DNA of 62,395 nt from Candidatus Dormibacteria bacterium (GTDB lineage: Bacteria > Chloroflexota > Dormibacteria > Aeolococcales > Bog-877). Location of the stretch: contig JBOHUH010000017.1 of the NCBI GenBank assembly GCA_050733915.1, forward strand, positions 1 to 62,395. Direction: 5' to 3'. The notes below the pieces were generated by a model that worked only from the letters and a program-made list of their open reading frames with translations, was not told the DNA's origin and searched no databases. Position numbers and translations under genes: made by a program. Shown here piece by piece: positions 29,284-47,684 of this stretch (position 1 is the first letter of the stretch; every line of letters starts with the position of its first letter).

Positions 29284-31452
29284 GTGCTGCGGCTTCACGA
29301 CACCATGAGCCGAGAGGTAAGGCCGGTTCAGCCGGGTGAGCCTCCCCTGCTGCGGATGTATAGCTGCGGTCCCACCGTCTACCGCTCGGTGCACATCGGC
29401 AACCTGCGCACCTATCTGATGGCCGACTGGATCAAACGGGCCGCCCGGGCCCAGGGCTGGCGGGTCCTCCACGTCAAGAACATCACCGACGTGGGTCACA
29501 TGCGCCAGGAGATGGCCGAGCGCGGCGGTGACAAGGTGATCGCCGCGGCCTTGGCCGCGGGGCGCACCCCCCAGGAGATCGCCGCCGAGTTCGAGGCGGA
29601 GTTCCACCAGGCCGAGGCGCTGCTGGGCATCGAGCCCGCCGACCGATTCCCGCGTGCCACTGATCACATCCCCGAGATGATCGCACTGGTGGAACGGCTC
29701 CTGGGGAGGGGCCTGGCCTACGCGGTCGACGGCACCGTCTACTTCGACACCGCCGCGGAGTCGACCTACGGACAGCTCTCGGGCAACTCCCTGGAGCAGC
29801 TGCAGCAGGCGGCCGGGGCGGAGCCCGACCCGGCCAAGCGCCATCCCGCCGACTTCACCCTGTGGCGCCAGGCCGAGCCCGGCCGCCAGCTGATGGTTTG
29901 GGACAGCCCCTTCGGCCGAGGCTACCCGGGCTGGCACATCGAGTGCTCCGCGATGGCCATCGCCTACCTGGGTGAGGAGGTGGACCTGCACACCGGGGGC
30001 GTCGACAACATCTTCCCCCACCACGAGGACGAGCTGGCCCAGAGCCAGGGGGCGACCGGTAAGCGGTTTGTGCGCCACTGGGTGCACGGTCAGCACCTGC
30101 TCGCCGACGGGGTCAAGATGGCCAAGTCCCAGGGCAATGTCTACACCCTGGGTGACCTCGTCGAGCGCGGCTTCGACCCCCTCGCCTTCCGCTACCTCTG
30201 CGCCACGGTGCGATACCGCAGCCGGCTCAACTTCACCCTCGCCTCCCTGGCGGCGGCGCAGCGCGGTCTGCAGCGCCTGCGCCGGTTGGCCGCGGGCCCC
30301 AACGGCGGCGAGGACGGCGCCCGGGTGGCCGAGCTGAGCCGGGAGTTGCAAGAGGCCTTCGAGAACGACCTCGACGTGCCCCGAGCCCTGGCACTCACGT
30401 GGAGATTCGCCAAGGCCAAGGGGACCAACGGGGCGACCCGCCGGGCCGGCCTGCTCCTCGCCGACAGCTGGCTGGGCCTGGCCCTCGGCCGTGAGCCTGC
30501 GGCCCTCTCCGAGAAGGGCGGGTGGTGGAAGCTGGCCCAGCAGAGAGCGGCACAGCGCGCCGAGCGCGCCTTCTCCGAGGCGGACTCGCTGCGGGGCGCG
30601 CTGCTGGCCCGGCAGGTGGTCCCGGAGGACGCCCGGGAGCGCACCAGCTACCGCCCGGCCACCGCCCTGGATCGCCGTCAGGGGCTGATCTCCTCCCCCC
30701 TGGAGGTACCCGACCAGCGCGCCGCCGAAGACCTAGTCGAGGTCTCGGTGAGCCTGGTCAGCAATGACCACCCGGAGGACCTGCAGCGCTGCGTGGCCAG
30801 CATCCGACGCCACCGCAACGGCCATTCCGGCGAGATCCTGATTGTCGATAACGACACCCCCGGGGGCGGGACCGCCCTCGACCGGCTGGCCCGCACCGAT
30901 CCAACGATCCGGGTCTTCCACGCCGACCACCAGCTGGGCGAGGGCGCCGCCCGCAACGTTACCCTGCGGGCCGCCCGGGGCTCGGTAGTGCTGCTCCTGG
31001 ACACCGGAGTCGAGCTGACTGGGGACTGTTTCGGCCCGCTGCTGCAAGCCCTTCGCGACGAGCGGGTGGGAGCGGTGGGGCGCTGGGCCGCGGTGAGCCA
31101 CGACCTGCGCGAGTTCCAAGACTCCGACGATGAGGAGGTCGACGCAATCGACGGCTACTGCCTGGGCTTCGCGCGGGGGCGGCTGCGCCAGGTGGGGTTG
31201 CTCGACGAGCGTTACCGTTTCTACCGCATGCTCGACTTCAACTTCTCGCTCACCCTGCGGGCCGCCGGGCTCAGCCAGCGCCGCCTCCCCGACCTTCCGG
31301 TGGTGATGCACCATCACCGGGGCTGGGAGGAGACCGATCCCGACGAGCGGGAGCGGCTCAGCCGGCTTAACTTCCGGCGCTTCTTCGAACGCTGGCACCA
31401 CCGCCCCGACCTGCTCCTGGCCCCCAGTCCCGAGCCCGCCCCCCACCGCTGA
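29284..31452 (+). CDS. cysS: Cysteine--tRNA ligase fused to a C-terminal GT2-type glycosyltransferase domain
   Basis: The N-terminal ~455 aa is a complete CysRS: Zn/Cys site YSCGPTVY, HIGN (VHIGNLRTY), GWHIECSAM, GGVDNIFPHHEDE, KMSKS variant VKMAKSQGN, ENDLDVPRAL and the usual C-terminal helical tail. From about aa 487 (nt ~30742) a GT-A/GT2 pattern begins: VSVSLVSNDHPEDLQRCVASI...EILIVDNDTPGGG...VVLLLDTG. It is one uninterrupted 722-codon frame. Confidence 0.9.
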   Translation: MLRLHDTMSREVRPVQPGEPPLLRMYSCGPTVYRSVHIGNLRTYLMADWIKRAARAQGWRVLHVKNITDVGHMRQEMAERGGDKVIAAALAAGRTPQEIAAEFEAEFHQAEALLGIEPADRFPRATDHIPEMIALVERLLGRGLAYAVDGTVYFDTAAESTYGQLSGNSLEQLQQAAGAEPDPAKRHPADFTLWRQAEPGRQLMVWDSPFGRGYPGWHIECSAMAIAYLGEEVDLHTGGVDNIFPHHEDELAQSQGATGKRFVRHWVHGQHLLADGVKMAKSQGNVYTLGDLVERGFDPLAFRYLCATVRYRSRLNFTLASLAAAQRGLQRLRRLAAGPNGGEDGARVAELSRELQEAFENDLDVPRALALTWRFAKAKGTNGATRRAGLLLADSWLGLALGREPAALSEKGGWWKLAQQRAAQRAERAFSEADSLRGALLARQVVPEDARERTSYRPATALDRRQGLISSPLEVPDQRAAEDLVEVSVSLVSNDHPEDLQRCVASIRRHRNGHSGEILIVDNDTPGGGTALDRLARTDPTIRVFHADHQLGEGAARNVTLRAARGSVVLLLDTGVELTGDCFGPLLQALRDERVGAVGRWAAVSHDLREFQDSDDEEVDAIDGYCLGFARGRLRQVGLLDERYRFYRMLDFNFSLTLRAAGLSQRRLPDLPVVMHHHRGWEETDPDERERLSRLNFRRFFERWHHRPDLLLAPSPEPAPHR

Positions 31453-37010: not shown

Positions 37011-37713
37011 GGCGCCTGGCGGCGCGCTTGGCCGGGGGCCGGCGCAGCGTCGACGCCGGGCACCAAGTCTCCAGGATGCAGAGCTCACAGCGGGGACGCC
37101 GGGCCAGGCAAACCCGGCGTCCGTGGAGGATGAGTCGGAGGCTGAGTCCGGTCCACTCCTGGCGCGGCACCAACCGGCAGACGGCCGATTCGATCTTGAC
37201 CGGGTCCGAGGAGTGGACCAGGCCGAGGCGGTTGCTCAGCCTGGCGACGTGGGTGTCGACCGGGAACCCCGGAACGTCGAAGGCGACTCCCAACACCACG
37301 TTGGCGGTCTTGCGCCCCACGCCGGGCAGCCGGGTCAGTTCCTCCATGGTCCGAGGCACCACCCCATCGAACTCCTCGGAGAGCACCCGCCCCATCCCGG
37401 TCAGAGACCGCGACTTGGCCCGAAAGAAACCGGTGGCGTGGATCAGTCCCTCCAGCTCGGCCGTGTCGGCGGTGGCGTAGGCAGCGGCGGTGGGGTAGCG
37501 CTCGAAGAGCGCGGGGGTGACCAGGTTGACCCGCTGGTCGGTGGTCTGCGCCGAGAGGATGGTGGCCACCAAGAGCTGCAGCGGGTCGTCGTGTTCCAGG
37601 GCGCAAGCCGCCGGGTAGCTGGCCGCCAGCGCCGCGACTGTGGCCCGCGCCCGCTGGCGGGGCGAGCGGGGTGGTTTGGCCGGGTCACCAACGGTGCCCG
37701 CCCCCTTTATCAC
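36940..37713 (-). CDS. nth: Endonuclease III (HhH-GPD DNA glycosylase) with a basic C-terminal tail
   Basis: LLVATILSAQTTD, HhH LPGVGRKTANVVL, and the 4Fe-4S cluster C-x6-C-x2-C-x5-C (CLARRPRCELCILETWC). A 39-aa Arg/Gly/Pro tail overlaps the convergent crotonase gene. Confidence 0.9.
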   Translation of the reverse strand: MIKGAGTVGDPAKPPRSPRQRARATVAALAASYPAACALEHDDPLQLLVATILSAQTTDQRVNLVTPALFERYPTAAAYATADTAELEGLIHATGFFRAKSRSLTGMGRVLSEEFDGVVPRTMEELTRLPGVGRKTANVVLGVAFDVPGFPVDTHVARLSNRLGLVHSSDPVKIESAVCRLVPRQEWTGLSLRLILHGRRVCLARRPRCELCILETWCPASTLRRPPAKRAARRPSGRGTGAGGARGGRPNPRGRPR

Positions 37714-37751
37714 GACCGCCTCGGGATGTACGGGGCGGCTATCCTAAATCC

Positions 37752-38246
37752 ATGCTGGCGGCCCGATGGCACGGAAGCGGCGGCCGACTTGGTAGCCGCA
37801 CGGCCGGCGCCGTGGCTGCCAGCCTGGCGCTGGGCATCCTCCTCGCCGGCTGCAGCTTCTTCGGCGACAACGGCACCCCAAACGCGGCACACATCCAGAC
37901 CGCGCCCGGCAATCAAGTTCCCCAAGCGAACTCCAAGCTCAAGATCGAGGCCGTCGCCAAGCCCCCCAAGAACCCAGAGTACCGGGTGATCATCTACCAC
38001 AACGCCAACACCGTGGGCTCGTACGTACCCGATCAGATCACCGTCCCGGTCGGCAGTCTCGTGGAATGGATCTGGACGGACGAGTACGACCAGCACAACG
38101 TCTGGTGGATCGACCAGGACCTGATCAACTCCCCGACCAAGGGTGCCGGCTACCGCTGGGCGGTCCGCTTCATGGCCCCGGGCACCTACGACTACTACTG
38201 CACTCTCCACCCCGGCATGCAGGGCACGGTGGTTGTCAAGGGATAG
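37752..38246 (+). CDS. Type-1 copper (cupredoxin, amicyanin/plastocyanin-like) lipoprotein
   Basis: Signal peptide with lipobox LLAGC. Copper ligands are the His in DQHNVWW and the C-x2-H-x2-M in YYCTLHPGMQG. ATG 37752 is preferred over the track start at 37671. Confidence 0.8.
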   Translation: MLAARWHGSGGRLGSRTAGAVAASLALGILLAGCSFFGDNGTPNAAHIQTAPGNQVPQANSKLKIEAVAKPPKNPEYRVIIYHNANTVGSYVPDQITVPVGSLVEWIWTDEYDQHNVWWIDQDLINSPTKGAGYRWAVRFMAPGTYDYYCTLHPGMQGTVVVKG

Positions 38247-38667
38247 CTGGCGCCGTCCCGGGGGCCGGCTGGCCCTAATTCCCCTGGTCGCCCTGCTGGC
38301 GCTGGCGCTCGCGTCCTGCCGAGGACCGGCGCCCGCGGCGGGGGCGGCGTTGCACCAGTGGCTCGCCGACGTTCAGGCCCACCAGGTGGCCTATGCCTAC
38401 ACCCTGCTCACCCAGGAGGCTGAGCAGCGCACCGACTACAACGCCTTCTTCGCCGGGGTCAACGCCAGCCGGGCGACCTTCAAGATCGCCTCGCTCAAAG
38501 TGATCTCCGCCAACGAGGTCGAGGGCACGGTCGCGGTTCACTCCGCAGGCGCCGGCCGCCCCACCAAGGTCGTGGTCCAGGTCTTGGAGGAGGGGAACGG
38601 TGGTGACTGGCTGATCGGAACTCCCTTCTCCACTAAGGGCGCCGACGCCATCCACGCCTTCCAGTAG
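38233..38667 (+). CDS. Putative lipoprotein (small NTF2/DUF4878-like fold?)
   Basis: Proposed in-frame TTG at 38233 gives MSRDSWRRPGGRLALIPLVALLALALASC, with lipobox LASC. There is no ATG/GTG after the cupredoxin stop that would preserve the signal peptide. The gene overlaps the cupredoxin 3' end by 14 nt. The start is uncertain. Confidence 0.55.
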   Translation: MSRDSWRRPGGRLALIPLVALLALALASCRGPAPAAGAALHQWLADVQAHQVAYAYTLLTQEAEQRTDYNAFFAGVNASRATFKIASLKVISANEVEGTVAVHSAGAGRPTKVVVQVLEEGNGGDWLIGTPFSTKGADAIHAFQ

Positions 38668-39115: not shown

Positions 39116-41128
39116 GTGACTGACGCCGGTTCGGTGGCGGCGCCCGGCGGCGTCGGTCCGGGAGGACGAAGCGCCTTCAGTGGGCTGCTCCTCACCCCGC
39201 TGCGCACGAGTCGGGGCGGGCTCTTCCTGACGGCCCTGGCGGTGGGGGTTGGCGCCGGCGCCGGCGCGGTCGTCTTCCGCTATCTGATATTCCTCTTCAC
39301 CTTCCTCGTCACCGGGCATCCCAACTACGGGCAGGCTGGTCGCGTCAGCAGCCCCCACCTTCCCGGTCTGGGCTTCTGGTTCATCCTTCTGGCCCCTGCG
39401 GTCGGGGGGCTGATCTACGGCCCGCTGATCCACTTCTTCGCCCGTGAGAGCCGAGGCCACGGGGTGCCTGAGGTCATGGTCGCGGTCGCTGAGAGTGGAG
39501 GTCGAATCCGACCTCAGGTGGCGGCCATCAAGGCACTGGCGTCGGCGCTCTGCATCGGGACCGGCGGCTCAGTGGGCCGCGAGGGGCCGATCGTCCAGAT
39601 CGGGTCATCGCTGGCCTCCACCTTCGGGCAGTGGATCCGCATGCCCGAGTCGCGCCTGAGGCTGCTGGTGGCATGCGGCGCCGCGGGCGGGATAAGCGCC
39701 ACCTTCAACGCTCCGCTTGCCGGAGCGTTCTTCGGGCTCGAGTTGATCCTCCGCGAGGTCTCAGCCGAGACCGTGGTCGCCCTGGTTCTGTCCTCGATGG
39801 CGGCCGACGCGGTGGGTCAGCTCGCCTTCGGCACCCACCCCTTCTTTCACCTCCCCCAGTTGACCATCGGGGGCGGCTGGGCCCTCCCACTCTGTGCTTG
39901 CCTGGGGCTGCTGGCGGGACTGGCGGGGGTCGGTTTCCAAAAGACCCTGTACCTGCTCGAGGACGGCTGGAACCACTTTTGGGGGGGGCGGCCCGAGTGG
40001 GCCCGCCCAGCCGTGGGAGGGCTGCTGCTGGGGGCGGTACTGCTGGCCCTGCCGCAGCTATACGGGGTCGGCTACCCGGTGCTCCAGCATGCCATCACCT
40101 CGGGCTACGTGCTGTGGTTTCTGGTCGCGCTGGGGGCGGGCAAGATCCTCGCCTGCAGCATCACCATCGCGATGGGGGGCTCCGGCGGCATCTTCGCCCC
40201 CTCCCTCTTCATCGGCACAATGCTGGGAATCAGCTTCGGCCTCATCGCCCACATGTGGTTCGGAGCGGGCATCGGCGCGGCCGGGGCCTTCGGGATGGTG
40301 GGCATGGGAGCCGTCTTCGCCGGGGCCGCCCGCGCGCCTCTCACCGCGATCGCGGCCACCCTGGAGATGACCGGGGACACCCGGCTGGTGCTGCCCGCGA
40401 TGCTGGCTGTGGGGGTGGCCACCGCGGTCAGCCTCAGGCTCACCCACGGGACCATCTACACCACCAAGCTGCTCCGCCGCGGCACCGACATCGACCGCAC
40501 CCGCCCGTCCACGTTGATGCAGCAGCTGCGGGTTGACGAGGTGATGCGAAGGCTCCCTGGCATCCAGGCGACCGCGCCCACCGCCGCCTCGGGCGCCGCT
40601 GAGACCGCCCCCCAGACTGGAGTTGGATCCCCTCCCCAAGCCGTCTTTTCCCAGGAGACGCTGGAGCAGGCCGTCCGCCAGCTGGCCATCTACGGCCACA
40701 CCGGCCTCCCGGTCATCTCGCCGGATGGGGAGCGGGTTGAGGGCTGGCTCAACAACCGCGATGTGATGGCCGCGTTTGCGGCCCGTCTGGGCAGGACGGT
40801 GAGTGATAGCGGCGCCGCCGCCCGCTCTGCGGCCTGGGCCGCGGACAATCCCCACAGTGAGGCGACCGAGGTGCGCAACCCGCTGGTGGGCTACCGGCTG
40901 GTGGACCTGCAGCTCCCGCGCCACTGGAGCGGCCTCACAGTGAGCGAGATCGCGTGGCCCCCTTCGACCCTGGTGGTCACGGTACGTCGAGGCCGCCAGC
41001 TGCTCACGCCCACCGGCGCCACCGAGCTGCGACAGGCGGACCTGCTGACCTTCCTGGTCCCCGCCAGCTCGATCGACCACCTGCGCTCAGCCAAGCCCAA
41101 GCGCCGACACCCGGCTGGCCCGCCCTAG
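39116..41128 (+). CDS. ClC-family chloride channel/antiporter with C-terminal CBS and TrkA-C (RCK_C)-like domains
   Basis: Selectivity motifs GSVGREGP and GGSGGIFAPSL, a CBS-like segment (VDEVM...GLPVISPDGERVEGWLNNRDV), and a TrkA-C-like end (LVGYRLVDLQLP...LTVSEI...VVTVRRG...ADLLTFLV). Confidence 0.9.
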   Translation: MTDAGSVAAPGGVGPGGRSAFSGLLLTPLRTSRGGLFLTALAVGVGAGAGAVVFRYLIFLFTFLVTGHPNYGQAGRVSSPHLPGLGFWFILLAPAVGGLIYGPLIHFFARESRGHGVPEVMVAVAESGGRIRPQVAAIKALASALCIGTGGSVGREGPIVQIGSSLASTFGQWIRMPESRLRLLVACGAAGGISATFNAPLAGAFFGLELILREVSAETVVALVLSSMAADAVGQLAFGTHPFFHLPQLTIGGGWALPLCACLGLLAGLAGVGFQKTLYLLEDGWNHFWGGRPEWARPAVGGLLLGAVLLALPQLYGVGYPVLQHAITSGYVLWFLVALGAGKILACSITIAMGGSGGIFAPSLFIGTMLGISFGLIAHMWFGAGIGAAGAFGMVGMGAVFAGAARAPLTAIAATLEMTGDTRLVLPAMLAVGVATAVSLRLTHGTIYTTKLLRRGTDIDRTRPSTLMQQLRVDEVMRRLPGIQATAPTAASGAAETAPQTGVGSPPQAVFSQETLEQAVRQLAIYGHTGLPVISPDGERVEGWLNNRDVMAAFAARLGRTVSDSGAAARSAAWAADNPHSEATEVRNPLVGYRLVDLQLPRHWSGLTVSEIAWPPSTLVVTVRRGRQLLTPTGATELRQADLLTFLVPASSIDHLRSAKPKRRHPAGPP

Positions 41129-41550
41129 TCGGTGGGCAGCGGCGCCGTCCTGCCGGTGCGGCGGGCGCGCGCCGCCCGAGGCGGCAGGTCGCTGCCCTTC
41201 TCCAGCCACGCCAGCAGGTGGTCCGAGATGCCCTGGCTGCGAAGCATCTCCCAGCCCTCCTCCAGCGAAACGTCGGCGGTCACCACCACCTCGTCCCCGA
41301 CCAGCTTGACCTGCCACTCCAGCGCCTCCAGGCGGCGCAGGATGTCGGAGATCAGGATGAGCCTCGACTTGAGCTCATGGCTGACCGCCGCCAGCCGCAC
41401 CGAGACGGGCAGCTGATCCAGGGTGGGCCGAGTGGGGAAGGCGAAGCTGCGCACCTCAAAGTAGGTCACCAAGGAGATCGGCACCGGCTCCTCGGTGACC
41501 TCGGCGTACTCTGAGGCTGGATCCCGCAGCGGCCGCAGCACTAGCTTCAC
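41125..41550 (-). CDS. Hypothetical soluble 141-aa protein, last gene of the Rieske/cytochrome b/CydA-like operon
   Basis: The GTG start (41550-41548) overlaps the TGA of the upstream gene (41549-41547). No TM segment and no motif I recognise. Its stop shares the CTAG tetranucleotide with the convergent ClC stop. Confidence 0.6.
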   Translation of the reverse strand: MKLVLRPLRDPASEYAEVTEEPVPISLVTYFEVRSFAFPTRPTLDQLPVSVRLAAVSHELKSRLILISDILRRLEALEWQVKLVGDEVVVTADVSLEEGWEMLRSQGISDHLLAWLEKGSDLPPRAARARRTGRTAPLPTD

Positions 41551-42941
41551 GGTCCGCTCTCCCAGGGCACGATCACCCCGACGCCGCTGGTCCCACTCAT
41601 CGCCGGCCCGTTGCCGCTCGGCGCCTTGAAGTTCTGCTGCTGGTTGATCAGGACCTGGTTGGTGATGAGGTAGGGCGCCCGGCTGTGCTCGCGGATGTAG
41701 CCCATCACGGCCATGATCAGGCTGACCGAGACGGCTACTGTGATCAGCGCCGCCGCCTGCCCCCGACCCCCATCGCCCCAGCGCACCCGGCCCCGGCTGA
41801 CGTGCTTGAGGTAGACGGTCACCGCCACGATCGCCACCCCGGTGAAGGTGATCAGGGCGACCAGCTTGAAGGGGATCATCTGCCCCCAGGGGATGATCAG
41901 GCCTCCCTGCCAGATGGGCACGTTGGCATTGGCGGCGACCACGTCCTCATAGCTCCAGGACAGCGACGAGGGGGTGGCGATAAGCAGCCAAGAAGCGAAG
42001 GAAAGGGCGGTGCAGACCGCCAGCGCCGGCGATCGCAGACCGCTGGCCTTGACCCGTCGCCAGAGATAGAAGATGCCCACCGTGAAGATGGCGCCCAGCA
42101 GGAATACCTGGAACAGGAATGCCACGCTGAGGCCGCCCATCATCATGCTGTACCAGGCGGCGTACGAGTGGAGCTGGATCTCCTTGGCGTACTCCCAGCC
42201 CACCAGTGGCTGGGCGATGGTGAATCCCACCGCCCAGACCAGGCCGTAGTGGCCCATCCAGTCGGCGAATGCCCGGGCCTCCGCCCGCTTGGCGAAGAGC
42301 AGCCGGATCCCCCCGACCAGCGCAATCATGGCCCCGGCCAGGGCGATGTTGCCCACGAAGCGATGGATCTCGAGGGGGATCAGGGTGGGGTTGAGGATGT
42401 TGAGGGCGAGGCTGGTTGAGGGCCTCGGGGTGAGCATGTAGGAGGCCACGATGTTGATCATCAGCATCTGGATCGAGGCATTGATGAAGAGCAGGAGCTC
42501 CAGGCCCACCCGGAGTGCGCGCACCTTGGCCATCCGGTCCCAGCCCCAGTAGAGCAGGTAGAGGCAGATGATCTCGCCGATGAAGGCGAAGGCCTCGATC
42601 ACAAAGGGCCAGAACAGGATCCGCTCCAGCTCCACGAAGAACTTGCTCCAGAGGCCGACGAAGAGGATCATCACCGCGAAGATCGCCAGCGCCGACCCAA
42701 AGGTGAAGGTGAGTCCGAGAGCGGTGAGCAGCTTCTTGGAGAAGCGGTCCTGCATCTCGTCTTTGCGCTTCCAGCCTACGAAGTCGCTCACCGTGAGGAT
42801 GATGTAGCCGCCCTGCTGGAAGGCCGCGAACTGGATGTGTACCAGCATCAGCAGGGCCACGAACGCGGTGGCCATGCCGGTGGAGACCGGCACCGGCACC
42901 ACCTGCGGGCCGGCTGCCGCGATCAGGCTGCCGAAGCTCAC
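41547..42941 (-). CDS. CydA-like membrane protein (cytochrome bd superfamily, no Q-loop), copy 2
   Basis: 464 aa, polytopic. The blocks LVHIQF (His35), VIEAFAFIGEI (Glu116, Glu123), LYWGWDRM, EIHRFVGN (His193) and GYIREHSRAP (Glu417) align with my memory of E. coli CydA HFLF, AIEGLMAFFLES, FFFGWDRL, VHTVASGY and AEYGRQPW. The GTG start overlaps the cytochrome b TGA. Confidence 0.8.
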   Translation of the reverse strand: MSFGSLIAAAGPQVVPVPVSTGMATAFVALLMLVHIQFAAFQQGGYIILTVSDFVGWKRKDEMQDRFSKKLLTALGLTFTFGSALAIFAVMILFVGLWSKFFVELERILFWPFVIEAFAFIGEIICLYLLYWGWDRMAKVRALRVGLELLLFINASIQMLMINIVASYMLTPRPSTSLALNILNPTLIPLEIHRFVGNIALAGAMIALVGGIRLLFAKRAEARAFADWMGHYGLVWAVGFTIAQPLVGWEYAKEIQLHSYAAWYSMMMGGLSVAFLFQVFLLGAIFTVGIFYLWRRVKASGLRSPALAVCTALSFASWLLIATPSSLSWSYEDVVAANANVPIWQGGLIIPWGQMIPFKLVALITFTGVAIVAVTVYLKHVSRGRVRWGDGGRGQAAALITVAVSVSLIMAVMGYIREHSRAPYLITNQVLINQQQNFKAPSGNGPAMSGTSGVGVIVPWESGP

Positions 42942-44158
42942 AGGTTGAAGAGCCGGTTCACAGCAAGCAGGGCCTCGAAGATCAGGAAGAGGACGGTGAA
43001 CAGCGCCGGCACCATGACCTCAGGCCGGCGCCAAGGCTCGCGGTCCGGCGTACGGTCCAGAAACGGTACCAGGATGAGGATGGTGGTCCCGATCCCCGGC
43101 AACACGAAGACCCCGACCGGGACCATCCAAGCCTGGGGGAACTGCACCAGCAACTGGTCCAGGGGCAGGAAGAACCATTCCGGGGTGGGCACGTAGGTGA
43201 GCACGGCGGGGTTGGCCGGCCGCTCCAGGGGCGCTCCCAGAACAACCGCCATCGCGAAGATCAGCACCACCAGACCGAAGCTGAGCACCGCGTCCTTGAA
43301 GACCTGGGAGGGGAAGAAGTCGTCGAGGTCCACCGGCACCGCATACCCGGGGTCGCTGGGAATCGCCGGATAGGGATATTCCGCCTTGGCCATCCGCTCG
43401 GCCCGATGCTCCTCGCTCTCCGTCTCCACCCCCTCGTAGTTGACCCAGGCGCCGTGCTCGCCGTGGCGGCGGAGCAGGATCAGATGGAGCCCGACCAGTG
43501 GCACCAGCAGGGCTGGCAGCAGCCAGATGTGGATGGCGAAGAAGCGGGTCAGCGTCTCTGGGCCCATCTGAGGGCCGCCGCGCAGGATGGTCTGGACCCA
43601 GCCCCCGAAGAAAGGTATGTAGTCGACCACGTGGGTGACCACGGTGGCCGTCCAGTAGGCGGCCTGGTCCCAGGGCAGCATGGCTCCGGTGATCCCGAGG
43701 CCCAGCACCAGCAGGAACAGGATCACCCCCACGATCCAGTTCAGCTCACGGGGCTTCTTGTAGGAGGCGCTGACGAAGGTGCGGACCATGTGCAGGCCGA
43801 TGATGATCAGCAGCACGTAGGCCCCCCAGAGGTGCATCCCGCGCACGATCGCGGCGAACTCGTCGTGGTGCTCGATGTAGTTGAGGCTCTCCCAGGCCTC
43901 GGTGGTCGAGGGCACGTAGGTCCAGAGCAGGAACATCCCGCTGACGATCTGTAGGACGATCAGGATCAGGGTGGCGCTGCCCAGGGAGTAGGCCCAGGCG
44001 CCGCGCCGCGGAACCGCCTCGTACAGCAGCTGGTGGGTGAGGTCGGAGACCCCGAGGCGCTCGTCCACCCAGCGGTAGGTGGCCGCCAGCGGCCGCGCCA
44101 CCGGGCGGGTGAACTTGGCGACCAGATCGCTGCGGGTGAGCTGGCTGGGGCTGGCCAC
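42938..44158 (-). CDS. Cytochrome b (fused b6-like N-domain + subunit IV-like C-domain)
   Basis: Haem-ligand His pairs on helix B (RGMHLWG...IGLHMVR, 14 residues apart) and on helix D (AIHIWLL...VGLHLIL, 15 residues apart, b6-like). PEWY-type motif PEWFFLP in the C-terminal part. Confidence 0.9.
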   Translation of the reverse strand: MASPSQLTRSDLVAKFTRPVARPLAATYRWVDERLGVSDLTHQLLYEAVPRRGAWAYSLGSATLILIVLQIVSGMFLLWTYVPSTTEAWESLNYIEHHDEFAAIVRGMHLWGAYVLLIIIGLHMVRTFVSASYKKPRELNWIVGVILFLLVLGLGITGAMLPWDQAAYWTATVVTHVVDYIPFFGGWVQTILRGGPQMGPETLTRFFAIHIWLLPALLVPLVGLHLILLRRHGEHGAWVNYEGVETESEEHRAERMAKAEYPYPAIPSDPGYAVPVDLDDFFPSQVFKDAVLSFGLVVLIFAMAVVLGAPLERPANPAVLTYVPTPEWFFLPLDQLLVQFPQAWMVPVGVFVLPGIGTTILILVPFLDRTPDREPWRRPEVMVPALFTVLFLIFEALLAVNRLFNL

Positions 44159-44163
44159 CTAGG

Positions 44164-44685
44164 TCAGCTCCCCTCACCGGTTAGCACGTTGCGCACGTAG
44201 AGGGTGCTGCCCACCAGCTTGTGCTCATAGCGGAACAGCGGCCAGGGGGGAGGGCCGCCGATGTTGGTGCCGTTGATGCTGTAGAGCCCCCCGTGGCAGG
44301 GACAGAGGAACTGCTTAAGGTTGACGTCCCAGTGCACGTCGCACTGCATGTGGGTGCACACGTTGGAGAGGGTGATCAGCTCCACCGCACCGGTCAGGTT
44401 GAGCTTGACCACGTAGACCGTGCGGGGCACCGGGGGAACCTGCCAGCCCTCATCGATGGGCAGGTTGACCACGTAGGCGGTGGGCACCCCGACCGCCACC
44501 GATGCGATGTCGGCCACCATTACCCAGGCGGTCTTGCGCTTGACGAAGAGCGGGCTCAGCACCGAGCCCACGATCGGCGCGCCGATCAGCAGGGCGGTAC
44601 CCGCCCCCACCCCGTTGATGGTGAGGATCATGAAGCGGCGGCGGGAGACCCGCCGGCCGGGAAGTTCCTGCTGGTGGTCAGCCAC
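44164..44685 (-). CDS. Rieske [2Fe-2S] protein with twin-arginine signal
   Basis: Tat motif SRRRFMI, cluster boxes CTHMQC and CPCHGG. The GTG start overlaps the preceding small ORF by 8 nt. Confidence 0.9.
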   Translation of the reverse strand: MADHQQELPGRRVSRRRFMILTINGVGAGTALLIGAPIVGSVLSPLFVKRKTAWVMVADIASVAVGVPTAYVVNLPIDEGWQVPPVPRTVYVVKLNLTGAVELITLSNVCTHMQCDVHWDVNLKQFLCPCHGGLYSINGTNIGGPPPWPLFRYEHKLVGSTLYVRNVLTGEGS

Positions 44686-44911
44686 CGGCCATGACCACGA
44701 TCCCGATCAGCAGCGCCATGCAGCACGCAAAGACCAGCAGGAAGGTGAAGGCCCCTCCCGCGACCACCATCCAGGCTATCCCACTCCCCTCCTGTTGAGC
44801 CAGCTGGCGGGCGTTGCGCAGGACGGAGTTGAACCCCACCAGCATCACCAAGAAGAACGCGGTCACGAGAATGCCGAGGTACCAGGCGGATTCGAAGTCC
44901 TGATAGTTCAA
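44678..44911 (-). CDS. Small two-TM membrane protein of the respiratory operon
   Basis: 77 aa with two hydrophobic helices (YLGILVTAFFLVMLVGF; AWMVVAGGAFTFLLVFACCMALLIGIVVM). The TTG start overlaps the upstream TGA (TTGA at 44908-44911). Confidence 0.55.
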   Translation of the reverse strand: MNYQDFESAWYLGILVTAFFLVMLVGFNSVLRNARQLAQQEGSGIAWMVVAGGAFTFLLVFACCMALLIGIVVMAGG

Positions 44912-46176
44912 GGCAGGGTCCCTCGGGGCGGGTTGAAGTTCTGGGTCGACTGGTTGAGGCTCAGCAGACAGCTGCTTTGGCCGGTGTTGGCGTCGATCCC
45001 GCAGGGCAGCTTGGCGTTCTCCTTGATCACTCCCATGTAGAGACTGAGAGCCAGGGCGCAGACCCCGACCACCCCGATGATTCGGGCGGCCACCGGGCTG
45101 ATCCGGTCGGAGCTGGTGCCGTGCAGCGAGCGCAGGTAGACCACCAGGTTGGCTGCGGTGGCCAGGAAGGCAACCAGGAGCGCGACATAGCGCAGGGCGA
45201 TGATGTTGGACGGGATCACCGCCGCCGGGAGGGCGGTCACCCCCATCCCGACCAGGGCCAGCACCGTCAAAGATCCCCCGCCGGGGCCGCGCCCACTGGC
45301 GTCGTGGTGACGCCAGAAGACCAGATTGGCCCCCACCACCAGCACCGCCAGCAGCGCGACCTGACCGATGAAGAGGCTGGCGGAGTTGAGCACGAAGAGA
45401 TTGTCAAAGGCGGGCAAGGAGCTGGTCTTGACCGTCTCCGCGAGCAGAAAACCGGTGATCGGCTGGGCCAGCAGGAATACCGAGCCGATCCCGAAGTTGA
45501 TCCGTGCCGCCCACCTCTGGTAGGCGACCTCTGCCGCGGACTTGGCCCGCCGCCCCCGCCAGACTGCGATCGCCGCCAGCAGCAGCGGGGCCCAGGAGAG
45601 GTTGGCCCCGGCATAGTGGAGCAGCAGCCAGGGGTAGGAGGGCGAGAAGGCGGCGCCAGAGGCGCTGGTGGCGGTGCCTGGGTCCAGGGCGTAACTGTCC
45701 AGCTCGACGATGGTGAAGAGGAAGACGTACTGGACGGCGGTGAAGGCGAAACCCACCGCCAGGTGCAGCCGTGGCGAGATCCGGTCCCAGCCGTAGACGT
45801 AGAGAAGCAGCAGCGGAATGCCCACGAAGAAACTGGAGAACGCGATCGTGAGGGGCAGCAGCAGCAGATTCAGCAACGTAGCGATCAGCCGCCCGTAGAG
45901 CCCGACCAGCAGCACCACCGCCAGCACCGCCCAGGTGGCCCCGAAGCTGTAGAGGTAGACGATCGCCCGCGAGAGCCCCTTGGCGTAACGCAGGCACATC
46001 GGGTCTCCCCCACGGCGCCGTCCCGCAAGCTCCATGAAGGGCGCGAGCGCCGTGGCGGCCAGGATGAAGCCGACCAGGGCGATGTGGATCAGGAAGGCCG
46101 CCCCGATCGCGAATTCGGCCCCCAGGGTGCCGAAGGGCAGCCTCGGGATGGGCGTGACTATCAGGGAGGGCAGCAC
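44908..46176 (-). CDS. CydA-like membrane protein (cytochrome bd superfamily, no Q-loop), copy 1, degenerate active-site glutamates
   Basis: 422 aa, a paralog of the 464-aa protein: FLIHIAL (His31), LYVYGWDRI, LLHYAGAN (His187), GVIKENAKLP. It has Ala112 and Gly119 where copy 2 has Glu116 and Glu123. GTG start with GAGG 5 nt upstream. Confidence 0.75.
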   Translation of the reverse strand: MLPSLIVTPIPRLPFGTLGAEFAIGAAFLIHIALVGFILAATALAPFMELAGRRRGGDPMCLRYAKGLSRAIVYLYSFGATWAVLAVVLLVGLYGRLIATLLNLLLLPLTIAFSSFFVGIPLLLLYVYGWDRISPRLHLAVGFAFTAVQYVFLFTIVELDSYALDPGTATSASGAAFSPSYPWLLLHYAGANLSWAPLLLAAIAVWRGRRAKSAAEVAYQRWAARINFGIGSVFLLAQPITGFLLAETVKTSSLPAFDNLFVLNSASLFIGQVALLAVLVVGANLVFWRHHDASGRGPGGGSLTVLALVGMGVTALPAAVIPSNIIALRYVALLVAFLATAANLVVYLRSLHGTSSDRISPVAARIIGVVGVCALALSLYMGVIKENAKLPCGIDANTGQSSCLLSLNQSTQNFNPPRGTLP

Positions 46177-46211
46177 TTCGCCTCAATGCTGACGGCACCA
46201 CCCGCCGCAAG

Positions 46212-46235
46212 GCAACTCCCAAGCTAGCAACTCCC
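46212..46235. repeat. Tandem direct repeat GCAACTCCC-N6-GCAACTCCC in the divergent promoter region between the respiratory operon and holA
   Basis: Exact 9-mers at 46212-46220 and 46227-46235 (15-nt register), flanking the palindrome AGCTAGC. Confidence 0.3.
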
Positions 46236-46273
46236 GAGCCCCCGACCGTCCGCGCCACGATAATCGGCTCCTG

Positions 46274-47231: not shown

Positions 47232-47684
47232 TCAGCTGCCCTTGGTCCCCTTGCCGGCCCCGCCCGCGGTACGGCGCTGGGAGCTCGAGGTGCGAGCGGT
47301 CTTGGTGGTGCTCCGGGCGGCCTTGGCAACCGCCGTCTTCCGTGAGCCGCCTGCCGATTTGGGCTTGGTCCCCTGAGCCGATCCGCGCTGGACCGGAGTC
47401 CTGGCGACCCCGCCCTCTTGAGGCACCGAGGCGGCCGCCTGAGCCCGCATCAGCCGCGACTTGCGCCGGGCCACGTTGCGGGGATGCAGCACCCCGTGCG
47501 CCGCCGCCTTGTCCAATGCCGAAGCCGCCTGCCGAATCGCCGACTCCGAGCCCTCCTCGACATCGTCCACCGCCCGCCGTGCCTTGGCGACCGCGGTGCG
47601 CACCGAAGTCCGAACCCGGCGGTTGCGCTCGTGCTTGCGGGCCGAGGACCGGATGCGTTTACGGGCGGAACTGGAGTTGGCCAT
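47232..47684 (-). CDS. rpsT: 30S ribosomal protein S20 with a ~60-aa basic C-terminal extension
   Basis: MANSSSARKRIRSSARKHERNRRVRTSVRTAVAK...KAAAHGVLHPRNVARRKSRL is canonical S20. A Lys/Arg/Ala/Thr/Gly-rich tail follows. Confidence 0.9.
   Translation of the reverse strand: MANSSSARKRIRSSARKHERNRRVRTSVRTAVAKARRAVDDVEEGSESAIRQAASALDKAAAHGVLHPRNVARRKSRLMRAQAAASVPQEGGVARTPVQRGSAQGTKPKSAGGSRKTAVAKAARSTTKTARTSSSQRRTAGGAGKGTKGS

What the first reader, a model, noticed from the sequence alone, without database searches (positions are those of the whole stretch)
41125..46176. Translationally coupled six-gene operon: Rieske + cytochrome b sandwiched between two Q-loop-less CydA-like paralogs, with no cytochrome c and no CydB
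Seen in the sequence: six minus-strand ORFs are joined by TTGA/GTGA 4-nt overlaps, one 8-nt overlap and one 5-nt gap, so they form one expression unit. In order they are:
- 46176-44908: 422 aa
- 44911-44678: 77 aa, two TM helices
- 44685-44164: Rieske protein with CTHMQC/CPCHGG and Tat signal SRRRF
- 44158-42938: cytochrome b with four haem His and PEWFFLP
- 42941-41547: 464 aa
- 41550-41125: 141 aa, soluble

The 422-aa and 464-aa proteins are paralogs. Compare LYVYGWDRI with LYWGWDRM, FLIHIAL with LVHIQF, LLHYAGAN with EIHRFVGN, and GVIKENAKLP with GYIREHSRAP. These blocks line up with what I remember of E. coli CydA (regions around His19, Glu99/Glu107, the GWDR box, His186, and Glu445 in AEYGRQPW). 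The long periplasmic quinol-binding Q-loop after the His186-equivalent helix is missing. None of the six proteins contains a CxxCH haem-c motif, and none looks like CydB.

Established knowledge: canonical bd oxidases are CydAB quinol oxidases that bypass bc complexes. Actinobacterial bc complexes are normally encoded as qcrCAB with a dihaem cytochrome c. Q-loop-less members of the bd superfamily have been catalogued phylogenomically, but their electron donors are not established.

Inference: the Rieske/cytochrome b pair could be the quinol-oxidising module that feeds a CydA/CydA'-type reductase directly. That would be a hybrid bc-bd respiratory complex working without soluble or membrane cytochrome c.
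Basis: partly seen in the sequence, partly recalled or inferred. Interest (0 to 1): 0.85.

Follow-up and report, generated by a model that had tools for sequence, protein, structure and literature searches.

The report
Rieske/cytochrome b operon with two CydA-like subunits
This is a real six-gene respiratory operon, probably from a Dormibacterota soil bacterium, that pairs a b6f-like quinol-oxidising unit with two loop-less relatives of cytochrome bd oxidase subunit I and has no cytochrome c; the arrangement was already catalogued in 2021 as the "OR-N5" type, but no enzyme of this kind has been studied experimentally.

Summary
They encode a CydA-like protein (422 aa), a two-TM protein (77 aa), a Tat-Rieske protein, a fused b6/subunit-IV cytochrome b, a second CydA-like protein (464 aa) and a soluble 141-aa protein. 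None has a CxxCH motif and none resembles CydB. Both CydA-like proteins belong to the bd superfamily and are paralogs.

The five-gene membrane core is conserved and co-directional in 63 of 63 related loci with enough flanking sequence. Only 1 of 85 loci has a cytochrome c in the sixth slot.

The 464-aa protein keeps the equivalents of E. coli H19, E99, E107, H186 and E445, so it is "a-type" and probably catalytic. The 422-aa protein keeps H19, H126 and H186 but lacks the proton-channel glutamates, so it is "b-type" and takes the place of CydB.

These features match the OR-N5a/5b subfamily of Murali, Gennis and Hemp (2021). Their supplement already reports its association with petA/petB/petD and proposes quinol as the donor. 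This is a new member (Dormibacterota) of a known but biochemically uncharacterised kind. Interest is moderate.

The parts
44908..46176 (-). P1, 422 aa: b-type Q-loop-less CydA paralog (OR-N5b-like; CydA', takes the place of CydB)
   Evidence: Pfam PF01654 at 43.7 bits, cut-off 26.2. PDB match to 9r2g_A CydA at 1.5e-5. In 55 unique family members H31 (=Ec H19), H138 (=H126) and H187 (=H186) are 100% conserved; the E99 position is Ala in 54 of 55; the E445 position is E in 34 and T in 20; D160 is present in 54 of 55.
44678..44911 (-). P2, 77 aa: small two-TM subunit, no known family
   Evidence: Two hydrophobic segments and no Pfam or NCBIfam hit. An HMM homolog, or a 76-81 aa two-TM ORF, occupies the same slot in the related loci (31 of 32 in the diverged group). 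Pairwise comparison with a diverged example gives 34% identity, E = 2e-4.
44164..44685 (-). P3, 173 aa: Tat-exported, membrane-anchored Rieske [2Fe-2S] protein, b6f-like
   Evidence: Pfam PF00355. Best NCBIfam hits are b6f PetC models, below their cut-offs. PDB best hits are b6f-type and Aquifex Rieske proteins. C110, H112, C115 and H131 are conserved in 62 of 62 relatives. The SRRRF motif lies ahead of the TM anchor.
42938..44158 (-). P4, 406 aa: cytochrome b, a fusion of a b6-like domain and a subunit-IV-like domain
   Evidence: Pfam Cytochrome_B at 4e-45 plus a weak Cytochrom_B_C hit. PDB: cytochrome b6 1vf5_A at 2.6e-45 over residues 25-236, and subunit IV at 1.5e-5 over residues 290-394. 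His109, His123, His210 and His225 are present in every relative aligned at those columns (61 sequences, one gapped at three of the four). The b6 Cys35 position, which binds haem c_n, is Ser58 here and is never Cys in relatives.
41547..42941 (-). P5, 464 aa: a-type Q-loop-less CydA paralog (OR-N5a-like; probable catalytic subunit)
   Evidence: No direct Pfam hit, but the family profile hits CydA of Geobacillus (5.9e-13), M. tuberculosis, M. smegmatis, C. glutamicum and E. coli. The AF2 model (pTM 0.80) matches only CydA chains in its top ten Foldseek hits, E = 3e-8 to 6e-6. H35, E116, H193, R194, K359, M413, R417, E418 and R421 are conserved in 77 of 77 relatives. The Q-loop residues K252 and E257 align to gaps, and there is no Met at the M393 position.
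41125..41550 (-). P6, 141 aa: soluble accessory protein of unknown function, coupled to P5 by a GTGA overlap
   Evidence: No TM segment, no Cys and no family hit. The homologs returned, where a source labels them, are almost all Dormibacterota MAG proteins. Present in 46 of 85 loci with enough downstream sequence. The AF2 model has pLDDT 81 and no PDB fold match, best E = 0.3.
46177..46273 (.). 97-nt intergenic region between P1 and the divergent holA-like gene; presumed promoter region of the operon
   Evidence: It is the only non-coding gap upstream of the cluster. A GAGG lies 5-8 nt before the P1 GTG start. No sigma-70 consensus was found, so the promoter is inferred, not shown.

Best explanation
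The six genes form one operon for an OR-N5-type 'bd-like' respiratory enzyme of a Dormibacterota bacterium. A b6f-like quinol-oxidising unit (Tat-Rieske protein plus a fused b6/subunit-IV cytochrome b) is co-encoded with a heterodimer of two Q-loop-less CydA paralogs, a small two-TM subunit and a cytoplasmic accessory protein. SHOWN: the identity of each protein; the paralogy; the absence of the Q-loop, of the M393 equivalent, of CxxCH and of CydB; the strict conservation of gene order and tight junctions; and the complete conservation of the haem and proton-channel positions. INFERRED: (i) the products assemble into one membrane complex; (ii) (mena)quinol is oxidised at the Qo site of cytochrome b; (iii) one electron passes from the Rieske cluster on the outer face directly to the low-spin haem held by His193 of the a-type subunit P5, whose Q-loop is replaced by a TM hairpin, with no c-type cytochrome in between; (iv) that electron reaches a di-haem site formed by His35 and Glu418, where O2 is reduced using protons delivered via Glu116 and Glu123; (v) the second electron recycles through haems bL and bH (a Q-cycle), so the enzyme would conserve more energy per electron than a canonical CydAB quinol oxidase; (vi) the b-type subunit P1 takes the structural place of CydB and, because it keeps the H19 and H186 equivalents, probably binds haem as well.
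For: Family assignments. Paralogy. Residue mapping to E. coli CydA. Conservation across 55-77 unique relatives. The P5 model shows ten long helices, with a hairpin (residues 272-322) where E. coli has its Q-loop. Synteny holds in 63 of 63 loci and persists at 33-35% identity. Cytochrome c is adjacent in only 1 of 85 loci. Overlapping junctions are conserved. The residue signatures agree with Table S6 of Murali et al. 2021: OR-N5a has H, E, E, Q at S140, no Met and E at E445; OR-N5b has A at E99, T at E107, D at N148 and S/E/T at E445. The same paper describes the petABD operon context and proposes quinol as donor. The Glu-Glu spacing (E116-E123, six residues between) is that of Geobacillus-type CydA, which the paper notes for OR-N.
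Against: No OR-N enzyme has been purified or assayed, and the papers read here describe OR-N function as hypothetical. The Met ligand of haem b558 (M393) has no aligned equivalent, so the ligation and potential of the entry haem are unknown. One relative (L002) carries a c-type cytochrome in the sixth slot. In Nitrospirales, OR-N5 CydAA' sits downstream of Alternative Complex III, a complex that to my knowledge carries c-type haems, so a haem-c donor is used or possible in some contexts. A lipoprotein cupredoxin is a conserved neighbour in Dormibacterota and could be the real acceptor of the Rieske protein. Subunit contacts were not modelled because no multimer tool was available. Membership in OR-N5 rests on signatures and context, not on a tree with reference sequences. 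At the H126 position the window's P5 has Arg where the published N5a reference has His, and P1 has His where the N5b reference has Asn.
Confidence: 0.6

Rival explanations
1. The CydA-like pair is an electron wire, not a terminal reductase. P1 and P5 would replace cytochrome c1/f as membrane haem-b acceptors of the Rieske cluster and pass electrons to a periplasmic carrier, such as the neighbouring lipoprotein cupredoxin, which would then feed a separate terminal oxidase elsewhere in the genome.
For: A cupredoxin (window 37671-38246, PF00127 at 1.5e-8, with a lipobox LLAGC) and its 174-aa partner lie directly downstream of P6, convergently, in 26 Dormibacterota loci. The operon has no c1/f-type subunit. 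Both paralogs keep the H19 and H186 equivalents, so both may bind haem.
Against: The cupredoxin is absent from the 33-44% identity groups, which keep the full five-gene core. It is on the opposite strand, and in this window a ClC gene separates it from the operon. P5 keeps 100% conservation of the residues that in CydA form the O2-reducing di-haem site and proton channel (E116, E418, R421), which a simple wire would not need.
Confidence: 0.13
2. It is the same complex but with a different terminal substrate. The CydAA' module would reduce NO, H2O2, peroxynitrite or another small oxidant, acting in detoxification rather than in oxygen respiration.
For: Canonical bd oxidases have documented roles in NO and peroxide tolerance (discussed in PMC10839748). 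The active-site surroundings differ from CydAB: Q at S140, A at N148, R or H at H126, and no Met393. OR-N function is explicitly unverified.
Against: The haem-ligand and proton-channel set retained by P5 is the one used for O2 reduction in all characterised family members, including archaeal CydAA', which is an active O2 reductase. No gene in the window points to nitrogen-oxide or peroxide metabolism.
Confidence: 0.15
3. These are two independent enzymes that are merely co-transcribed: a Rieske/cyt b complex that uses an unlinked acceptor, and a CydAA' oxidase with its own cryptic quinol site.
For: Operon membership alone does not prove a physical complex. Archaeal CydAA' works as a stand-alone quinol oxidase.
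Against: Both paralogs lack the Q-loop and its K252/E257 equivalents. The Rieske and cyt b genes sit between the two CydA-like genes in 63 of 63 loci. That interleaved order has survived to 33% identity with overlapping junctions, which is hard to explain without co-assembly. The Rieske/cyt b unit has no acceptor of its own in 84 of 85 loci.
Confidence: 0.08

Closest known systems
OR-N5a/OR-N5b CydAA' with petA/petB/petD (Murali, Gennis and Hemp 2021; references Rubrobacter xylanophilus WP_143528031.1/WP_143528035.1 and Chloroflexi TMC48000.1/TMC47996.1)
   Same: Two paralogous Q-loop-less CydA genes of about ten TM helices. The reference pairs have accessions four apart, consistent with three intervening genes as here. 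The operon includes Rieske and cytochrome b6/subunit IV homologs. There is no haem-c motif and no M393 equivalent. The a-type has the E99/E107/E445 equivalents with Q at S140; the b-type has A at E99, D at N148 and S/E/T at E445. Paralog identity is 26-32%.
   Different: The host phylum is Dormibacterota. At the H126 position the window's a-type has Arg (the reference has His) and the b-type has His (the reference has Asn). A sixth cytoplasmic gene (P6) and a conserved small two-TM subunit are documented here; the text I could read does not mention them.
OR-N5-type CydAA' downstream of Alternative Complex III in Nitrospirales (PMC12342949)
   Same: The same subfamily label for the CydA pair, and the same logic of a quinol-oxidising module encoded next to a Q-loop-less bd-type module.
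   Different: There the quinol-oxidising partner is ACIII, which to my knowledge contains c-type haems. Here it is Rieske/cyt b with no c haem.
OR-N1/OR-N2 'bd-like oxidase' of Nitrospira, Nitrospina and Ca. Manganitrophus
   Same: Q-loop-less CydA homologs that form a putative CydAA'. OR-N1 is also reported with petABD.
   Different: Those proteins have 14 TM helices and lack E99 equivalents; OR-N2 operons carry several cytochromes c; and cytochrome c is usually assumed to be the donor.
Archaeal CydAA' (qOR4a/4b) of Caldivirga maquilingensis
   Same: CydB is replaced by a CydA paralog, and O2 reductase activity has been demonstrated experimentally.
   Different: qOR4a keeps the quinol site, including M334 and aurachin sensitivity, and needs no bc module. 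Its CydA' lacks the H186 equivalent, whereas P1 here keeps it.
Canonical CydAB(X) cytochrome bd quinol oxidase (E. coli, Geobacillus, Mycobacterium)
   Same: The CydA fold and the H19/E99/E107/H186/E445 set in P5.
   Different: Here there is no Q-loop, no M393, no CydB and no TM9. Two extra TM helices replace the Q-loop. The quinol site is presumably handed over to cytochrome b.
Cytochrome b6f, and the actinobacterial bcc-aa3 supercomplex as a functional analogue
   Same: A Rieske protein plus a b6/subunit-IV-type cytochrome b with four His. Like bcc-aa3, it would be an obligate quinol:O2 assembly needing no soluble cytochrome c (this comparison is from my own knowledge).
   Different: There is no cytochrome f, c1 or di-haem c subunit; no haem c_n Cys; and the oxidase module is bd-type rather than haem-copper. 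The NCBIfam actinobacterial QcrA and QcrB models score far below their cut-offs (20 against 275 bits, and 108 against 500 bits).

Membership tests
Cytochrome bd superfamily (CydA fold, PF01654) | Significant sequence or structure match to CydA | tested here: met
   P1: PF01654 at 43.7 bits, cut-off 26.2, and 9r2g_A at 1.5e-5. P5: the family profile hits 5doq_A at 5.9e-13, and the top ten Foldseek matches of its model are CydA chains, TM up to 0.57.
Cytochrome bd superfamily (CydA fold, PF01654) | His on TM1 equivalent to E. coli H19 (active-site haem ligand) | tested here: met
   P5 H35 in 77 of 77 and P1 H31 in 55 of 55.
Canonical quinol-oxidising bd oxidase (qOR, CydAB) | Periplasmic Q-loop with the quinol-site residues K252 and E257 | tested here: not met
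   Both positions align to gaps in all 22 P5-type and 12 P1-type sequences. The model shows a TM hairpin at residues 272-322 instead.
Canonical quinol-oxidising bd oxidase (qOR, CydAB) | Met393 as second axial ligand of haem b558 | tested here: not met
   The aligned position is V/I/L/T in P5-type and V/A/L/S in P1-type sequences.
Canonical quinol-oxidising bd oxidase (qOR, CydAB) | A CydB subunit (PF02322) | tested here: not met
   No PF02322 hit for any operon protein at E <= 1, and none in the other window ORFs scanned. The second large subunit is a CydA paralog.
OR-N5a/b (Murali et al. 2021) | No quinol site and no haem-c (CxxCH) motif in the CydA homologs | tested here: met
OR-N5a/b (Murali et al. 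2021) | An a/b pair of CydA paralogs in one operon, where a has the E99/E107 equivalents and b lacks them | tested here: met
   P5 has E116 (77 of 77) and E123. P1 has A112 and G119 and is never Glu at those positions.
OR-N5a/b (Murali et al. 2021) | About ten TM helices | tested here: met
   The P5 AF2 model has ten long helices. The P1 hydropathy profile gives 12 overlapping windows, consistent with about ten helices but not exact.
OR-N5a/b (Murali et al. 2021) | Operon with petA (Rieske), petB and petD homologs | tested here: met
   with 63 of 63 syntenic loci.
OR-N5a/b (Murali et al. 2021) | Signature residues of Table S6 | tested here: inconclusive
   Most agree. For N5a: Q at S140, E at E445 and no Met. 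For N5b: A at E99, T/G at E107, D at N148 and E/T at E445. The H126 position differs from the single reference sequences: P5 has R (or H in half of the family), and P1 has H where the reference has N.
OR-N5a/b (Murali et al. 2021) | Phylogenetic placement inside the OR-N5a and OR-N5b clades | not tested
Cytochrome bc1 / b6f / actinobacterial bcc complexes | Rieske 2Fe-2S ligands and four haem-b His in cytochrome b | tested here: met
   C110, H112, C115 and H131 are conserved in 62 of 62. H109, H123, H210 and H225 are present in every relative aligned at those columns (61 sequences, one gapped at three of the four).
Cytochrome bc1 / b6f / actinobacterial bcc complexes | A c-type cytochrome subunit (c1, f or di-haem QcrC) | tested here: not met
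   No CxxCH in the operon. Only 1 of 85 related loci has an adjacent cytochrome c.
Cytochrome bc1 / b6f / actinobacterial bcc complexes | For b6f and Firmicutes-type complexes: the Cys that binds haem c_n covalently (b6 Cys35) | tested here: not met
   It aligns to Ser58, and relatives have T, S or A. P4 has no Cys at all.

The most novel reading that the evidence does not exclude
The operon encodes an obligate bc-bd fusion enzyme in which a Rieske [2Fe-2S] cluster donates electrons directly to a b-type haem of a CydA-like subunit. This would be the first Rieske/cyt b complex with no c-type or f-type acceptor. Both CydA paralogs would carry haems, and a Q-cycle would be coupled to high-affinity bd-type O2 reduction, roughly doubling the proton yield of a bd oxidase. 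The two subtypes found here (P5 with Glu123/Arg144 plus the P6 protein, against Gln123/His144 without P6) would then be two alternative solutions for proton delivery or assembly.
Probability: 0.4. Interest if true: 0.7.

Novelty: new member of a known kind. Interest (0 to 1): 0.4.

Why it matters
If the inferred mechanism is right, this enzyme class breaks two textbook rules. The first is that Rieske/cytochrome b complexes hand electrons to a c-type (or f-type) cytochrome. The second is that bd oxidases are stand-alone quinol oxidases that bypass complex III. A Q-cycle-coupled bd-type oxidase would combine high O2 affinity with better energy conservation. That would be relevant to Dormibacterota, which are described as persisting in nutrient-poor soils (my own knowledge, not tested here). 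The value of this locus is practical rather than conceptual. The class was catalogued in 2021 but never purified. This analysis defines a compact, universally conserved five-gene core plus an accessory gene. It identifies which paralog is probably catalytic, lists the invariant residues to mutate, and shows that the lack of cytochrome c is a family trait rather than an assembly artefact.

Tried and rejected
- The 2021 paper's supplements hold no reference sequences, so no OR-N5 phylogeny was possible.
- Cluster-member look-up gave almost no taxonomic names for distant homologs.
- P6: no Pfam or NCBIfam hit, and its confident AF2 model has no PDB fold match. The best hits are meaningless HIV reverse-transcriptase fragments at E = 0.3. 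Its function remains unknown.
- The promoter and terminator scan found nothing above chance.
- Candidate CxxCH ORFs near related clusters turned out to be alternative-frame ORFs or DnaJ, whose zinc finger explains the motif. They were rejected as cytochromes.
- ORFs downstream of P5 in the P6-less loci have no Pfam family and no consistent identity, so no hidden sixth subunit was found there.
- Literature searches on the Dormibacterota respiratory chain and on early Chloroflexi genome notes gave nothing specific to this operon.
- Actinobacterial qcrCAB was considered and rejected: the NCBIfam QcrA and QcrB models score far below their cut-offs, and there is no QcrC.

Full report

Yes. Their junctions are a 4-nt TTGA overlap, an 8-nt overlap, a 5-nt gap and two 4-nt GTGA overlaps. 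The five ORFs long enough for the GC3 scan have GC3 of 0.90-0.92 in a roughly 70% GC window, a strong coding signal. None of the six contains CxxCH or CxxxCH. P2 has two hydrophobic segments and P6 has none. Internal terminator-like or promoter-like sites do not exceed chance.

**2. What are the proteins?**

Pfam and NCBIfam give these assignments:
- P1 (422 aa) is Cyt_bd_oxida_I, at 43.7 bits against a cut-off of 26.2, covering profile positions 6-238.
- P3 is a Rieske protein. Its best NCBIfam matches are b6f PetC models, below their cut-offs.
- P4 is Cytochrome_B (4e-45) with a weak C-terminal Cytochrom_B_C match.
- P2, P5 and P6 have no family hit.

P5 nevertheless belongs to the bd superfamily, on four lines of evidence:
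- It is a full-length paralog of P1 (26% identity, E = 5e-24).
- Its relatives at 32-46% identity carry PF01654.
- A 22-sequence family profile hits CydA of Geobacillus (5.9e-13), M. tuberculosis, M. smegmatis, C. glutamicum and E. coli.
- Its AlphaFold model (pTM 0.80) matches only CydA chains in the top ten Foldseek hits (E = 3e-8 to 6e-6), followed more weakly by CydB chains.

Cytochrome b is closest to cyanobacterial and chloroplast b6 (2.6e-45, residues 25-236). It has a subunit-IV-like C-terminal part (residues 290-394, 1.5e-5). The b6 Cys that binds haem c_n aligns to Ser58. The Rieske protein is closest to b6f-type and Aquifex Rieske proteins.

**3. Which paralog does what?**

I aligned both families to E. 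coli CydA, taken from MG1655, and then counted residues across all the relatives collected.

| E. coli position | P5-type (77 unique sequences) | P1-type (55 unique sequences) |
|---|---|---|
| H19 | H35, 100% | H31, 100% |
| E99 | E116, 100% | A112 (A in 54 of 55), never Glu |
| E107 | E123 (E in 38, Q in 37) | G119 (T, G or L) |
| H126 | R144 (R in 38, H in 39) | H138, 100% |
| H186 | H193, 100% | H187, 100% |
| R391 | K359, 100% | not mapped |
| E445 | E418, 100% | E386 (E in 34, T in 20) |
| R448 | R421, 100% | K389 (K or R) |

In both families the Q-loop residues K252 and E257 fall in gaps, M393 has no Met equivalent, and E. coli TM9 is missing. In the P5 model, two extra TM helices (residues 272-299 and 305-322) occupy the Q-loop position, giving ten helices.

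P5 is therefore the a-type, probably catalytic, subunit. P1 is the b-type subunit that stands in for CydB. Pfam recognises only P1 directly, yet P5 keeps more of the catalytic residues.

**4. Is the arrangement conserved?**

Gene neighbourhoods came from four sources:
- encoding-contig look-ups;
- 14 genome loci;
- 80 metagenome loci spanning 37-83% identity;
- my own HMM survey of those loci.

In 63 of 63 loci with at least 3.3 kb upstream, the order is P1-type, Rieske, cyt b, P5-type on one strand. L029 was flagged only because it has a second, weak cytochrome b hit. A two-TM ORF of 76-81 aa fills the P2 slot even where the HMM fails (31 of 32 loci; 34% identity to the window's P2, E = 2e-4). 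The most distant relatives (33-35% identity) keep the same core. The cyt b/P5 4-nt overlap occurs in 68 of 88 loci and the P5/P6 overlap in 36 of 49.

The sixth slot varies. Of 85 loci with at least 500 nt downstream:
- 46 have a P6 homolog;
- one (L002) has a 168-aa c-type cytochrome (PF13442/PF00034);
- the remaining 38 have nothing recognisable.

Other CxxCH hits were alternative-frame ORFs or DnaJ. The absence of cytochrome c is thus a property of the family, not a local rearrangement.

The family is small. Out of 1.84 billion representatives, only 22 clusters at 50% identity reach E <= 1e-30 against P5, and 262 reach 1e-3.

**5. Surroundings**

The nearest relatives are Candidatus Dormibacterota MAGs with the same flanking genes: holA-like, rpsT, ispE, nth, glmU and prs. 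The rest of the window is housekeeping chromosome. It holds no cytochrome c, CydB, haem-copper oxidase or cytochrome-c maturation genes.

A lipoprotein cupredoxin (37671-38246) and a 174-aa partner are immediate convergent neighbours of P6 in 26 Dormibacterota loci. In this window a ClC channel gene lies between them and the operon. The more distant groups lack this association.

**6. Comparison with what is known**

Murali, Gennis and Hemp (bioRxiv 10.1101/2021.01.16.426971, later ISME J) divide the bd superfamily into qOR, OR-C and OR-N. OR-N lacks the quinol site. OR-N5a/b proteins have about ten helices and occur as a/b paralog pairs. The reference pairs are from Rubrobacter xylanophilus (WP_143528031.1 and WP_143528035.1) and a Chloroflexi MAG (TMC48000.1 and TMC47996.1). 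In each pair the accessions are four apart, consistent with three genes in between, as here.

Their Table S6 signatures match what I find:
- N5a: H, E, E, Q at S140, no Met, and E at E445.
- N5b: A at E99, T at E107, D at N148, and S/E/T at E445.

The exception is the H126 position.

Later genomic papers still describe OR-N enzymes as uncharacterised. They report OR-N5 CydAA' directly downstream of Alternative Complex III in Nitrospirales. This suggests a portable CydAA' module that docks onto different quinol-oxidising units.

I could not run a tree with the reference sequences, so subfamily membership rests on signatures, topology and operon context.

**7. Mechanism**

The best-supported reading is a single membrane complex, working as follows. 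Everything in this list is inference from homology and context.
- Quinol is oxidised at the Qo site of the b6-like cytochrome b.
- The Tat-exported Rieske cluster carries one electron on the outer face to the His193 haem of P5, whose Q-loop has been replaced.
- The di-haem site (His35, Glu418) reduces O2, with protons delivered via Glu116 and Glu123.
- The second electron recycles through bL and bH.

The Rieske box II reads CPCHGG rather than CPCHGS. From my own knowledge, this is typical of lower-potential, menaquinol-type Rieske proteins.

The rivals are an electron wire to the cupredoxin, a non-O2 substrate, and two independent enzymes. I weigh them in the rival explanations and consider each less likely.

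**8. Verdict**

However, both the arrangement and the hypothesis were published in 2021. This is a new Dormibacterota member of a known, experimentally untouched kind. What this analysis adds:
- the five-gene core, including the small subunit, is universal;
- cytochrome c is almost always absent;
- the a and b roles are assigned and the invariant residues listed;
- the family splits perfectly into two subtypes. P5 with Glu123/Arg144 always has P6 (38 of 38). P5 with Gln123/His144 never has it (37 of 37).

Noticed in passing
window 37671-38246 (+) and 38143-38667 (+); L003-L036: A lipoprotein cupredoxin (PF00127, lipobox LLAGC, type-1 copper motif ...YYCTLHPGM) and a 174-aa partner with no family hit lie immediately downstream of P6, convergently, in 26 Dormibacterota loci. 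They are absent near the cluster in the more distant groups. The cupredoxin is a possible periplasmic electron carrier for this complex.
   Followed up: partly
window 39116-41128 (+): A ClC chloride-channel gene with CBS and TrkA_C domains sits between the operon and the cupredoxin pair only in this window, so it looks like a lineage-specific insertion. Its stop codon overlaps the P6 stop convergently by 4 nt (41125-41128).
   Followed up: partly
P5 residues 123 and 144 (window 41547-42941) and the P6 slot; loci L001-L099: There is a perfect split into two subtypes. P5 with Glu123 and Arg144 always has a P6 gene downstream (38 of 38). P5 with Gln123 and His144 never does (37 of 37, plus two S/M,His variants without P6). 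This could be simple clade structure, or a functional link between P6 and the proton-channel residues.
   Followed up: partly
L002:9428-9934 (+): In one distant relative (35% identity) the sixth slot holds a 168-aa mono-haem c-type cytochrome with a signal/anchor sequence (CASCH; PF13442/PF00034) instead of P6. It is followed by a 113-aa protein with a C-terminal TM segment and no family hit.
   Followed up: partly
P5 M413/M355 and P1 M381 (window 41547-42941 and 44908-46176): A Met five residues before the E445-equivalent Glu is 100% conserved in both paralog families (motif MG-x-I-[RK]-E), although E. coli has no Met there. P5 also has Met355 (70 of 77) four residues before the invariant Lys359 (=Ec R391). 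Either could be the missing second axial ligand of the b558-like haem. This is untested because no model coordinates were available.
   Followed up: no
L011, L013, L015, L004 (record titles) and P0036, P0038, P0111, P0112: Several SMAG_* MAG records carry this operon at 63-84% protein identity (P1- or P5-type), and those whose flanks I examined share the Dormibacterota-type neighbourhood. Yet they are labelled Micrarchaeaceae archaeon, Acidiferrales, Nanopelagicaceae or Verrucomicrobiae. These taxonomic labels are probably wrong.
   Followed up: no
window 29284-31452 (+): A 722-aa ORF combines a complete class-I cysteinyl-tRNA synthetase catalytic domain (PF01406, 4.7e-90) with a C-terminal family-2 glycosyltransferase domain (PF00535, 8.6e-13). 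This is an unusual fusion, if the ORF is not two genes joined by a frame or assembly error.
   Followed up: no
L001:2689-4734, L101:482-3409; L100:513-2452, L101:3396-5326: In the distant groups the cluster is preceded by a large Usp + PCP_red (PF00582 + PF08369) protein and/or an ABC-2 type exporter pair. This recurs across contigs, and its meaning is unknown.
   Followed up: no
window 47232-47684 (-): Ribosomal protein S20 is 150 aa. The Pfam domain covers residues 2-81 only, leaving a basic, Ala/Lys/Arg-rich C-terminal extension of about 70 aa.
   Followed up: no
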